From: Naegleria gruberi
Taxonomy: Eukaryota
Assembly (NCBI GenBank): GCA_000004985.1
Contig: GG739449.1
Direction: 5' to 3' (one strand)
Length of the DNA: 1,315 nucleotides
Shown: positions 1 to 1,315 of the stretch, in pieces
How positions within the stretch are numbered: position 1 is the first letter of the stretch
How the letters are laid out: every line of letters begins with the position of its first letter
The notes under the pieces: generated by a model
Told to the model about the DNA's origin: nothing
Database searches by the model: none
Seen by the model: only the letters and a program-made list of their open reading frames with translations
Translations under genes and position numbers: made by a program

Positions 1-98
1 TTGTTATTAATACATGAGTCTGTGGAGAAGAGAAAGGTTTGGTGGTTTCGGGTTCTTGCTTTTGCTTTTTGTTTTTAGGACCATCACCTACAGTTAGA

Positions 99-138
99 CG
101 TTTTGTGCATTTTTTCATTATTGTTTGGCGGGAAGATC
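99..138. repeat. Left arm of an imperfect inverted repeat flanking the gene (cgttttgTGcat[15-nt insertion]tggcgggaaGatc).
   Basis: The reverse complement of 1201..1226 is cgttttgcattggcgggaaaaatcgt. It matches the left arm as cgttttg(99..105), cat(108..110), tggcgggaa(126..134) and atc(136..138). The left arm carries a 15-nt insertion (tttttcattattgtt, 111..125). The GC-rich 9-mer tggcgggaa is unusual in a sequence with about one-third GC. Confidence 0.45.
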
Positions 139-198
139 CCCCGAAATCCCAAACAACAACTTTTATTTCTTGTTGGAATTCCAAGTATTAAAATCCAC

Positions 199-206
199 TA
201 TATTAG
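199..206 (+). promoter_or_regulatory. TATA-like element (ctATATTAg) about 113 bp upstream of the ATG.
   Basis: TATATTA lies at 199..205 in the 5' flank. In sequence this AT-rich, a TATA-like heptamer is weak evidence on its own. Confidence 0.2.
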
Positions 207-317
207 ACAAAATAAAAGCAATAAATTCAAATGAACATGTAAATTTCAACTTATTTTTATTCATGGATCATTTGGATGGTTGACTGGATATGGGCCACTT
301 AAAATCTTGAGAAAAAA

Positions 318-650
318 ATGTCAAACCAATTACTGTCCAACAGTGGAGTCCTTGTACAGGAAATTGTTGCCTTCCTTGCAAATGATGAAGATAAATCCAA
401 CATTGGTCAAATTCTCATGATGAGATTAGTTTGCAAAGATTGGAACGAAACTTTTATTAATTCTCATGATTTCTGGCACAGTATGATGATTGCCAATTTG
501 GATAAGGGTATGAAAGCAAGAGGAATTGAAGAGAAGGTTGAAATTCTTTCACATCCCAATCGAAACAATACTCAGTTCATGTTAAATTGTATTCGAAACT
601 GTTTTCTTGCTCAACAATCGATTGACTGTTTGAAATCAGTGGAAGCCTAA
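318..650 (+). CDS. F-box domain-containing protein, N-terminal segment (110 aa).
   Basis: The translation contains LVQEIVAFLANDEDKSNIGQILMMRLVCKDWNETFINSHDFW. This matches the F-box consensus (…eiLleIlsrLdpkdLlrlrlVsKrWrslvdsdrlW). The hydrophobic spacing fits, the V-C-K-x-W core is present and the trailing W is conserved. The canonical LP dipeptide is missing. The start context aaaaATG is typical of nematodes. The product ends …SVEA followed by the TAA stop. Confidence 0.6.
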   Translation: MSNQLLSNSGVLVQEIVAFLANDEDKSNIGQILMMRLVCKDWNETFINSHDFWHSMMIANLDKGMKARGIEEKVEILSHPNRNNTQFMLNCIRNCFLAQQSIDCLKSVEA

Positions 651-656
651 CAATCA

Positions 657-1181
657 ATGTGTTATGAGCCTGCTATCCTTAACGAATCCAATGACGAATT
701 AGTTTCCGAAATGATTCGCCAACTTTCACCTTACATCTTTATCCAGAAAACCTCTTTTGATTTCTTTTCTTATGATCAGTCAGATTGTGAATATGATTTT
801 ATCATTCCAAATATTCAAGGAAATACCGAATTGACTCAACTATATTTTAAAGTTTATAGATGCGATTATGGAAGTGGTAATGGTTCACTACTAAGATCTA
901 TTGTAGTAATTTTCCAAGAAGAAAAAGAAATTCTAAAAAATGATGTTTGCTACGAGTATGATGGCTCACGCTCAGAATACGTTGCAGATAAGGAGATGAT
1001 TAAGGTTGTTATGGAGAGAATTGGGTTGAGTGCAGAAATGATTAATTCTAAAGCTTGTTTCGATGAGTTTATGATTGCATTGTATTGTAAAGCAGTTGTG
1101 GGAATAATTCCTATTGCTCTCTGTGAAAGAGATTTGTTTTATATGGATAGAACAAGCAGAATAAAAGATATTGAAGAATAA
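657..1181 (+). CDS. Uncharacterised C-terminal region (174 aa from the first ATG; the frame is open from 651), probably the F-box-associated substrate-recognition part of the same gene.
   Basis: It lies in the same frame as the upstream F-box ORF, 6 nt after its stop. It has no promoter or A-rich start context of its own (caatcaATGt). The ORF is long for such an AT-rich sequence. Its TAA stop at 1179..1181 overlaps AATAAA. I recognise no named domain. It contains three spaced Cys-x-Tyr-Asp/Gly motifs. Confidence 0.5.
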   Translation: MCYEPAILNESNDELVSEMIRQLSPYIFIQKTSFDFFSYDQSDCEYDFIIPNIQGNTELTQLYFKVYRCDYGSGNGSLLRSIVVIFQEEKEILKNDVCYEYDGSRSEYVADKEMIKVVMERIGLSAEMINSKACFDEFMIALYCKAVVGIIPIALCERDLFYMDRTSRIKDIEE

Positions 1182-1182
1182 A
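1177..1182 (+). promoter_or_regulatory. Poly(A) signal AATAAA overlapping the stop codon.
   Basis: The sequence gaagAATAAAcaaatgg has the TAA stop (1179..1181) embedded in AATAAA. Very short 3' UTRs of this kind are common in compact nematode genes. Confidence 0.45.
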
Positions 1183-1201
1183 CAAATGGTAAACTTGGTA
1201 A

Positions 1202-1226
1202 CGATTTTTCCCGCCAATGCAAAACG
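1202..1226. repeat. Right arm of the inverted repeat (cgatttttcccgccaatgcaaaacg).
   Basis: See the left-arm entry. The arms are about 1.06 kb apart and enclose ATG 318 through poly(A) signal 1182. T-rich flanks (about 50..80 versus about 1235..1260 reverse-complemented) show a possible weaker extension of the similarity. Confidence 0.45.
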
Positions 1227-1315
1227 ACAAAATTATTGACAAAAAAAAGCAACAAAATTACACTTGGTTAATTTACAGGTCCAGTTGTGTATGCTGACAT
1301 ATTGAATAACCGGAA

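What the first reader, a model, noticed from the sequence alone, without database searches (positions are those of the whole stretch)
99..1226. Imperfect inverted repeat brackets the entire F-box gene unit
cgttttg..cat..tggcgggaa.atc at 99..138 recurs as its reverse complement at 1202..1226, and the left arm holds a 15-nt insertion. The arms enclose the start codon, the coding region and the poly(A) signal, about 1.1 kb in total. The two arms could be degenerate terminal inverted repeats of a transposon that captured or mobilised the gene. They could be a breakpoint signature of the inverted duplications that expand nematode F-box clusters. They could be paired regulatory sites. The GC-rich tggcgggaa core stands out against the AT-rich background, so chance is less likely, though I cannot compute a statistic here.
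Basis: seen in the sequence. Interest (0 to 1): 0.5.

Follow-up and report, generated by a model that had tools for sequence, protein, structure and literature searches.

The report
Chance inverted match around E2F-like motif
The "inverted repeat" around this gene is not a transposon end or a duplication scar; it is a 10-base GC-rich word, matching the binding site of the cell-cycle factor E2F, that occurs once in each non-coding flank of a decaying Naegleria gene, padded by chance matches.

Summary
As an extended inverted repeat they are not above chance: in shuffled sequence the best inverted match equals or beats the arms in 78-99% of trials under valid local scoring.

The window is a complete 1,315-bp scaffold of the amoeboflagellate Naegleria gruberi, not a nematode. 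The outer half of the left arm (99-118) is the first seven codons of a neighbouring minus-strand gene. There are no target-site duplications and no transposase. The few paralogs lie on different scaffolds.

The only part above chance is TTGGCGGGAA (125-134, and its reverse complement at 1208-1217). It is shared by the two non-coding flanks (P=0.008) and matches the E2F consensus GCGSSAAA (right 8/8, left 7/8). N. gruberi encodes E2F, with the DNA-reading stretch [22 protein letters not shown] identical to human E2F4.

The most likely reading is two independent E2F-type sites, or plain coincidence, and not a structural unit.

The enclosed "F-box" gene has only sub-threshold F-box matches. It carries an in-frame TAA in two independent assemblies, so it looks like a pseudogene. 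Interest is low.

The parts
1..118 (-). 5' end of a divergently transcribed neighbouring gene (ATG at 118-116; MKKCTKRLTVGDGPKNKKQK...). It is an orphan P-loop (FGIGKTT) NTPase-like protein.
   Evidence: Called gene 3-734(-) in L001, open for at least 244 codons. Weak sub-threshold AAA_22/NB-ARC hits. No homologs found.
99..138 (.). Bases 99-118 are coding sequence of the neighbouring gene (codons 1-7), and 119-138 is its immediate 5' flank.
   Evidence: Identical in the second assembly L001.
125..134 (+). TTGGCGGGAA, an E2F-like core (GCGGGAAg, 7/8 to GCGSSAAA). It lies 7-16 nt upstream of the minus-strand ATG and 184-193 nt upstream of ATG 318.
   Evidence: Consensus taken from PMC4862756.
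117..160 (-). Local dyad/hairpin that contains the left core and abuts the neighbour's AUG. It is the most stable 44-nt fold in the window.
   Evidence: -17.9 kcal/mol, z=-3.49, 0 of 200 shuffles. Window-wide scan: mean -3.7, sd 2.75.
318..650 (+). ORF1 (110 aa), the N-terminal half of a Naegleria-specific protein with a weak F-box-like signature. It ends at an in-frame TAA (648-650).
   Evidence: Paralogs P0002, P0004 and P0006 read through this point.
651..1181 (+). The same reading frame continued. ORF2 (174 aa from ATG 657) is the annotated N. gruberi 'predicted protein'. Stop TAA is at 1179-1181.
1177..1182 (+). AATAAA poly(A) signal overlapping the stop codon ('dual-use' stop). The predicted cleavage site is about 15-20 nt downstream, i.e. 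about 1197-1202.
   Evidence: Read from the sequence. N. gruberi usage of AAUAAA, dual-use stops and the 15-20 nt spacing are from PMC11529991. The cleavage position is inferred.
1202..1226 (.).
   Evidence: Identical in L001, which has a 5-nt AACGA tandem duplication immediately 5' of it.
1207..1217 (-). TTGGCGGGAAA on the minus strand, a perfect E2F consensus (GCGGGAAA at 1207-1214; it reads TTTCCCGCC on the plus strand).
1273..1315 (-). Possible 3' end of a convergent minus-strand ORF (...PNSGYSICQHTQLDL*). Uncertain: a 1-nt indel between assemblies changes its tail, and a plus-strand ORF from ATG 1292 is open in L001 instead.
   Evidence: Unresolved.

Best explanation
There is no structural inverted repeat here.

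(a) A 10-nt GC-rich word, TTGGCGGGAA, occurs once in each non-coding flank, in opposite orientation.

(b) Short AT-rich matches (CGTTTTG, CAT, ATC) fall nearby with different spacing. This happens routinely in 33%-GC DNA. On the left side these matches lie inside the first seven codons of the neighbouring gene.

The 10-mer matches the binding site of the E2F/DP transcription factor. The most likely mechanism is two independent promoter-type E2F sites. The left one sits in the roughly 200-bp divergent promoter between the minus-strand P-loop gene and the F-box-like gene, only 7-16 nt from the former's ATG. The right one sits in the short spacer downstream of the poly(A) site, possibly serving the next gene. 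E2F/DP, with RB-family repression, would bind each site separately and couple the adjacent gene to the cell cycle.

Shown: the sequence facts, the statistics, the gene layout, and the presence of E2F in the organism. Inferred: that E2F binds these sites and that they regulate anything.

The enclosed gene is probably a pseudogene, so 'bracketing a gene unit' has no functional meaning.
For: - The extended arms are not above chance. The core alone is: it is shared between the two non-coding flanks at P=0.008.
- GCGSSAA occurs twice against 0.10 expected from shuffles.
- The rate in 42.6 kb of real heterolobosean DNA is 0.093 per 1,315 nt, giving Poisson P=0.004 for two copies.
- The E2F consensus GCGSSAAA is taken from PMC4862756. 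The right copy matches 8/8 and the left 7/8.
- N. gruberi has E2F, DEL and RB (supplement of PMC4862756). Its E2F carries Pfam E2F_TDP. It aligns to the DNA-bound human E2F4 structure 1CF7 at E=7e-25, and the stretch [22 protein letters not shown] is identical.
- The three GCGSSAA matches in N. lovaniensis and Willaertia DNA all lie near gene 5' ends: 88 and 45 nt upstream of starts, and +47 in the E2F gene itself.
- The left arm overlaps the neighbour's coding sequence.
- Both cores are unchanged in a second assembly that is 96.7% identical.
Against: - All statistics on the core are post hoc. I recognised E2F after seeing the word, and window-wide a 10-mer this informative arises in 12.8% of shuffles.
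- The right copy is not demonstrably in a promoter. It may lie between two convergent genes.
- Conservation between the two assemblies has almost no power (about 1.6 changes expected in the arms, 0 seen).
- The left core is also half of a strong local hairpin, which could be the real reason for its sequence.
- Heterolobosean background sample: it is small (3 sites).
- Source genome: it could not be searched.
Confidence: 0.5

Rival explanations
1. Pure coincidence. Both copies of the 10-mer, and everything around them, are chance matches with no function at either site.
For: - The best inverted match in shuffles equals or beats the arms in 78-99% of trials.
- A single inverted exact block this informative appears in 12.8% of shuffles.
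- My rough prior that two neighbouring spacers both carry real E2F sites is about as small as the chance probability.
Against: - The word is rare in real heterolobosean DNA (3 GCGSSAA matches in 42.6 kb) and in shuffles.
- Both copies fall in the 25% of the window that is non-coding.
- The word matches the consensus of a factor the organism encodes.
Confidence: 0.33
2. Only the left core is functional, and as part of the local hairpin/dyad at 117-160 (a 5'-leader structure or dyad-symmetric promoter element of the neighbouring minus-strand gene). The right copy is coincidental.
For: - The hairpin is the most stable 44-nt fold in the window: -17.9 kcal/mol, z=-3.49, 0 of 200 shuffles.
- Position: it abuts the neighbour's AUG.
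- Conservation: it is kept in L001 apart from one loop-closing pair.
- The right arm region has no structure (z=+0.3 to +0.4).
Against: - The segment was chosen after inspection, and its GC content (45%) is above the window's.
- One second haplotype gives no covariation.
- The transcription start is unknown, so it is not known whether this sequence is in the mRNA.
Confidence: 0.1
3. The arms are degenerate terminal inverted repeats of a DNA transposon or MITE-like element that captured or mobilised the gene.
For: An interrupted inverted match lies on either side of a 1.1-kb unit. The tailor-made two-block test gives P=0.036.
Against: - No target-site duplication.
- Only 7 nt of perfect terminal match, with spacing of 19 versus 2 nt to the core.
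- The left terminus lies inside the neighbour's coding sequence.
- No transposase domain.
- Nothing resembling the right-arm 25-mer (up to 6 substitutions allowed), and no good local match to either arm, in paralog contig L002; no right-arm-like copy in 42.6 kb of related genomes.
- The 19-mer's nine metagenome hits are 19-22-nt chance matches in unrelated, mostly GC-rich contigs.
Confidence: 0.04
4. The arms mark the breakpoints of an inverted segmental duplication that expanded the gene family. A variant of this idea is that the two sites cooperate (looping or insulation) to delimit the gene unit.
For: The arms bracket one family member.
Against: - Family members lie on five different scaffolds and share only 25-54% amino-acid identity, so there is no recent local duplication.
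- No inverted paralog lies within L001.
- The enclosed gene carries nonsense mutations, so there is little to insulate.
- No evidence of any kind for cooperation between the sites.
Confidence: 0.03

Closest known systems
E2F/DP transcription-factor binding sites (consensus TTTSSCGC / GCGSSAAA) in promoters of cell-cycle genes of animals and plants
   Same: - Sequence match: the right copy, TTTCCCGCC/GCGGGAAA, is 8/8 and the left is 7/8.
- Position: the left copy sits close to a gene start in a short divergent promoter.
- Factor: the organism encodes E2F, DEL and RB, with an E2F4-like recognition helix.
   Different: No binding or expression data exist for Naegleria. The right copy lies in a 3' spacer with no established downstream promoter. 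The flanking genes are orphans with no known cell-cycle role, and one is probably a pseudogene.
Terminal inverted repeats of class II DNA transposons / MITEs (Tc1-mariner, hAT, PIF-Harbinger)
   Same: Inverted orientation of similar sequence at the two ends of a unit of about 1.1 kb.
   Different: - No target-site duplication.
- Very short perfect termini.
- Large unequal internal gaps.
- No transposase.
- One end lies within a neighbouring gene's coding sequence.
- No detectable copy number.
Chance inverted matches in AT-rich eukaryotic DNA
   Same: The score of the arms falls below the typical best inverted match in dinucleotide-shuffled versions of the same window.
   Different: The GC-rich 10-nt core is individually rarer than typical chance matches when only the non-coding flanks are considered.

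Membership tests
Class II TIR transposon / MITE | Terminal inverted repeats of roughly 10 nt or more of high identity exactly at the element ends | tested here: not met
   The perfect terminal match is 7 nt (CGTTTTG/CAAAACG). After that come gaps of 2 and 15 nt. The arms score below shuffles.
Class II TIR transposon / MITE | Target-site duplication immediately outside both termini | tested here: not met
   Flanks are ...CAGTTAGA| and |ACAAAATT. The best direct repeat over all boundaries within about 10 nt of each end is a 3-nt GAC with shifted ends.
Class II TIR transposon / MITE | Multiple copies in the host genome | not testable with these tools
There are no arm-like copies in L002, L021 or L022. 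Metagenome and viral scans gave only chance hits.
Class II TIR transposon / MITE | Transposase inside (autonomous element), or a short non-coding interior (MITE) | tested here: not met
   The interior is an 861-nt host-family reading frame with no transposase domain.
E2F/DP binding site | Match to consensus GCGSSAAA / TTTSSCGC | tested here: met
   Right copy 1207-1214(-) GCGGGAAA, 8/8. Left copy 128-134 GCGGGAA followed by G, 7/8. Consensus from PMC4862756.
E2F/DP binding site | The organism encodes E2F/DP with a conserved DNA-binding domain | tested here: met
   NgruE2F, NgruDEL and NgruRB are in the PMC4862756 supplement. P0008 is 100% identical to NgruE2F and carries PF02319. It aligns to 1CF7 E2F4 at E=7e-25 with an identical recognition helix. 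A DP subunit was not explicitly confirmed.
E2F/DP binding site | Promoter-proximal position | tested here: inconclusive
   The left copy is 7-16 nt upstream of the neighbour's ATG and 184 nt upstream of ATG 318. The right copy is in a 3' spacer whose downstream gene and strand are unresolved.
E2F/DP binding site | Factor binding and cell-cycle-dependent expression of the adjacent gene | not testable with these tools
   Needs EMSA, DAP-seq or ChIP, plus synchronised-culture RNA-seq.
F-box protein | F-box domain detectable above the curated threshold | tested here: not met
   - Window ORF1: F-box-like E=0.06, 13.6 bits against a cut-off of 24.3.
- Paralog P0006: F-box 14.9 bits against 20.5.
- A family profile finds no F-box structure in the PDB.
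- The AF2 model is unusable, pLDDT 42.7.
- The RLVCKDW motif is F-box-like, and UniRef names P0006 'F-box domain-containing', so the label is possible but unproven.
Inverted segmental duplication breakpoint | An adjacent paralogous copy in inverted orientation with high nucleotide identity | tested here: not met
   There is none in the 1,994-bp L001. The paralogs are on different scaffolds at 25-54% amino-acid identity.

The most novel reading that the evidence does not exclude
TTGGCGGGAA is a functional E2F/DP site in Naegleria. In that case the left copy, embedded in a stable local hairpin 7 nt from a start codon, and the right copy would be among the first cis-regulatory elements identified in Heterolobosea. 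They would be direct evidence that E2F site specificity has been conserved since the last eukaryotic common ancestor. The handful of GCGSSAA sites seen near gene 5' ends in N. lovaniensis and Willaertia (including one in the Willaertia E2F gene itself) hint at this.
Probability: 0.4. Interest if true: 0.3.

Novelty: not a real feature. Interest (0 to 1): 0.1.

Why it matters
It matters little as originally framed. There is no evidence for gene capture by a transposon or for a duplication mechanism, and the organism was misidentified. The useful outcomes are corrective. An interrupted 20-25-nt inverted match in 33%-GC DNA is expected by chance, and the left arm is partly a neighbouring gene's coding sequence. 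If the residual 10-nt E2F-like word proves functional, it would be a modest but real data point on cis-regulation in Naegleria. I found no paper describing promoter motifs in Naegleria, although the E2F-RB machinery is known to be present.

Tried and rejected
- Cheap-gap alignment schemes that could absorb the 15-nt insertion went into the linear regime, with whole-window scores of about 100-390 in real and shuffled sequence alike. They are uninformative.
- The metagenome scan with the 19-mer CGTTTTGCATTGGCGGGAA gave 9 hits, all 19-22-nt matches in unrelated, mostly 41-60% GC contigs, as expected by chance.
- The viral scan with a gapped pattern covering both arms gave 9 unrelated hits.
- I tried to fetch N. 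gruberi genomic loci of the gene, its paralogs and E2F. None is on record, so copy number in the source genome could not be tested.
- The homology search with the upstream P-loop protein found nothing.
- The Rfam scan gave only a sub-threshold SNORD33 hit inside the coding region (E=0.5, 22 bits against 44). I rejected it as chance.
- The family profile against PDB found no F-box hit.
- The AlphaFold2 model on the 5-sequence family alignment had pLDDT 42.7, so I ran no fold search.
- Ciliate-type code (TAA = Gln) as an explanation for the in-frame TAA: rejected. The source is Naegleria, the gene also ends at TAA within AATAAA, and L001 adds a TAG.
- Long-range RNA pairing of the arms: rejected. 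The right arm lies at or beyond the predicted poly(A) site, and the left arm is about 180 nt upstream of the ATG and overlaps the opposite-strand gene.
Full report
**1. The observation**

The window reads as the finding says.
- The left arm, 99-138, is CGTTTTGTGCATTTTTTCATTATTGTTTGGCGGGAAGATC.
- The reverse complement of the right arm, 1202-1226, is CGTTTTGCATTGGCGGGAAAAATCG.
- The shared blocks are CGTTTTG, CAT, TGGCGGGAA and ATC. The longest exact block is actually 10 nt: TTGGCGGGAA at 125-134 and its reverse complement at 1208-1217.
- The left arm has extra insertions of 2 and 15 nt. As a result the outer 7-mer is 19 nt from the core on the left but only 2 nt on the right.
- The generic repeat finder reports a different, ungapped 26-nt pairing at 77% identity around the same core, among 70 inverted pairs in this window.

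**2. Is it more than chance?**

I compared the window with dinucleotide-preserving shuffles of itself.

| Test | Result for the arms |
|---|---|
| Composition-blind local alignment against the reverse complement | Arms score 10-11; best inverted match in shuffles averages 12.0-13.8; 98.5-99% of shuffles reach the arms' score |
| Log-odds scoring that rewards G/C matches, gap costs kept in the local regime | Arms score 20-22; shuffles average 23-26; P = 0.78-0.93 |
| Cheaper gaps | Linear regime; meaningless |
| The 10-mer alone, window-wide | P = 0.128 |
| The 10-mer as the most informative word shared by the two non-coding flanks (119-317 and 1182-1315), either orientation | P = 0.008 |

The extended inverted repeat is therefore not distinguishable from chance. 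One sub-feature is: the 10-mer core.

**3. What the locus is**

*Source.* ORF 657-1181 is 100% identical to a 'predicted protein' of Naegleria gruberi, and the contig on record is 1,315 bp. The window is therefore a whole small scaffold of that amoeboflagellate and not nematode DNA.

*A second copy of the locus.* An independent ENA metagenome assembly carries the same locus on a 1,994-bp contig (L001). It is 96.7% identical and extends 616 bp upstream and 39 bp downstream.

*The upstream neighbour.* L001 shows a minus-strand gene that is open for at least 244 codons, with its ATG at window 118-116. It encodes an orphan protein with a P-loop (FGIGKTT). It has only sub-threshold AAA_22/NB-ARC matches and no detectable homologs. 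Two consequences follow:
- Bases 99-118 of the left arm are codons 1-7 (MKKCTKR) of this neighbour.
- The left core lies 7-16 nt upstream of its ATG, in a 199-bp divergent spacer.

*The 3' end.*
- AATAAA (1177-1182) overlaps the stop codon TAA (1179-1181).
- This is the 'dual-use' arrangement described for N. gruberi, where cleavage occurs about 15-20 nt past the signal (PMC11529991).
- The mRNA should therefore end near 1197-1202, and the right arm lies at or beyond it (inference).
- What lies further downstream is unresolved. A minus-strand ORF ends at about 1273, but a 1-nt indel between the assemblies changes its tail and instead opens a plus-strand ORF from ATG 1292 in L001.

**4. The enclosed gene**

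- ORF1 (318-650) and ORF2 (657-1181) are in one frame, separated by a single TAA at 648-650.
- An exhaustive HMMER search found only a handful of relatives. All named ones are from N. gruberi.
- P0002 (54% identity), P0004 and P0006 read straight through the position of the TAA. The TAA is therefore a nonsense mutation in a formerly continuous gene.
- The TAA is present in both assemblies, so it is not a sequencing error. L001 adds a second nonsense change, CAG to TAG at window 357.
- Coding differences between the two assemblies are 1 nonsense, 3 missense and 2 synonymous. That is what relaxed constraint would give, although the numbers are tiny.
- The F-box label is weak:
  - Pfam F-box-like scores E=0.06, 13.6 bits against a cut-off of 24.3, for the window.
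  - Paralog P0006 scores 14.9 bits against a cut-off of 20.5.
  - A family profile finds no F-box structure in the PDB.
  - An AlphaFold2 model was unusable (pLDDT 42.7).
- The paralogs sit on scaffolds of five different lengths, so the family is dispersed and not a tandem cluster.

**5. Testing the mobile-element and breakpoint readings**

- There is no target-site duplication at the stated boundaries or anywhere within about 10 nt of them. The best is a 3-nt GAC if the ends are shifted by one base.
- There is no transposase domain.
- Nothing resembling the right-arm 25-mer (up to 6 substitutions allowed) occurs in the paralog contig L002 or in 42.6 kb of N. lovaniensis and Willaertia DNA, and neither arm gives a good local match to L002.
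- The exact 19-mer of the right arm occurs 9 times in JGI metagenome contigs, and a gapped pattern occurs 9 times in viral contigs. All are bare 19-22-nt matches in unrelated, mostly GC-rich sequences, which is the number expected by chance.
- The source genome itself could not be reached. Copy number there remains untested. This is the main gap.

**6. What the core most likely is**

*Match to a known site.* TTGGCGGGAA contains GCGGGAA. The E2F consensus is GCGSSAAA (Rabinovich et al. 2008, as quoted in PMC4862756). The right copy matches 8/8, and reads TTTCCCGCC on the plus strand. The left copy matches 7/8.

*Rarity.*
- GCGSSAA occurs twice in the window against 0.10 expected from shuffles.
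- In 42.6 kb of real heterolobosean DNA it occurs three times, a rate of 0.093 per 1,315 nt. The Poisson P for two copies is 0.004.
- Those three sites lie 88 nt and 45 nt upstream of gene starts, and at +47 in the annotated Willaertia E2F gene.

*The factor is present.*
- The supplement of PMC4862756 lists N. gruberi E2F, DEL and RB sequences.
- The E2F is in the protein database with Pfam E2F_TDP.
- It aligns to the DNA-bound human E2F4 structure 1CF7 at E=7e-25.
- The stretch [22 protein letters not shown] is identical between the two proteins.
- From established knowledge of that structure, the same DNA specificity is a reasonable inference.

*Caveats.*
- I recognised E2F only after seeing the word.
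- The background sample is small.
- The right copy is not shown to be in a promoter.
- Identity of both cores in L001 has almost no statistical power.

I put functional E2F-type sites at about 0.4-0.5 and pure coincidence at about 0.33.

**7. A local structure that competes for the left core**

Positions 117-160 form a dyad: TTGTTTGGCGGG ... CCCG ... CCCAAACAA.
- As minus-strand RNA it folds at -17.9 kcal/mol, with z=-3.49 and 0 of 200 shuffles as stable.
- It is the most stable 44-nt fold in the window, where the mean is -3.7 and the sd is 2.75.
- It abuts the neighbour's AUG and contains the left core.
- It differs in L001 only at a loop-closing G-U pair.
- The right arm region has no structure.

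The left core may therefore owe its sequence to this local element and not to any relation with the right arm.

**8. Verdict**

- **Observation:** partly confirmed. The letters match, but only the 10-nt core exceeds chance.
- **Interpretation:** the transposon and nematode-duplication readings are not supported. The 'regulatory sites' reading survives, but as two independent E2F-like sites and not as a pair that delimits a gene.
- **Novelty:** the feature as described is not real. If the sites are functional, they are new instances of a very well known kind.
- **Interest:** low.

Noticed in passing
window 648-650 and 357; L001 1261-1263 and about 973: The two ORFs are one reading frame interrupted by an in-frame TAA that is present in both independent assemblies. 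L001 adds a second nonsense change (CAG to TAG). Paralogs read through, so the annotated 174-aa 'predicted protein' is probably the tail of a pseudogene or a split gene.
   Followed up: yes
window 117-160 (minus strand): A strong local hairpin/dyad lies immediately 5' of the neighbouring gene's AUG: -17.9 kcal/mol, z=-3.49, the most stable 44-nt fold in the window. It contains the left E2F-like core. Its function is unknown (5'-leader structure or dyad promoter element).
   Followed up: partly
window 1-118 (minus strand); L001 3-734: The upstream divergent gene encodes an orphan protein of at least 244 aa with a P-loop (GIGKT). It has only sub-threshold AAA_22/NB-ARC matches and no homolog in a 5.8-billion-protein search. 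It is cut off by the scaffold end.
   Followed up: partly
window 1177-1182: AATAAA overlaps the TAA stop codon. This is the 'dual-use' stop/poly(A) signal reported for 11-13% of N. gruberi genes. L001 has a 9-nt in-frame insertion just before it that preserves the overlap.
   Followed up: partly
window 173-190: A perfect 12-nt palindrome, TTGGAATTCCAA (173-184), is the most informative inverted match in the window. It is replaced by different sequence in L001, so it is not conserved.
   Followed up: partly
window 1199-1302 vs L001: The 3' spacer is indel-rich between the two assemblies.
- A 5-nt AACGA tandem duplication abuts the right arm.
- A 12-nt insertion creates AATAAA on the minus strand in L001.
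- A 1-nt indel near the scaffold end switches which strand has an open frame.
   Followed up: partly
window 410-421 and 459-470: An exact 12-nt direct repeat, AATTCTCATGAT, occurs 49 nt apart inside ORF1. It was not evaluated statistically.
   Followed up: no
L022 10047 and 15211; L021 1033: The only three GCGSSAA matches in 42.6 kb of Willaertia and N. lovaniensis DNA sit near gene 5' ends.
- TTTGGCGC at +47 of the Willaertia E2F gene itself.
- TTTGCCGC 45 nt upstream of an MGMT-like gene.
- CGCGCCAA 88 nt upstream of an uncharacterised gene.
This is a hint of promoter-proximal E2F sites in Heterolobosea.
   Followed up: partly
window 375-437 (+): A sub-threshold Rfam hit to SNORD33 (22.2 bits against a gathering score of 44, E=0.5) lies inside the coding region. 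I judged it a chance match.
   Followed up: no
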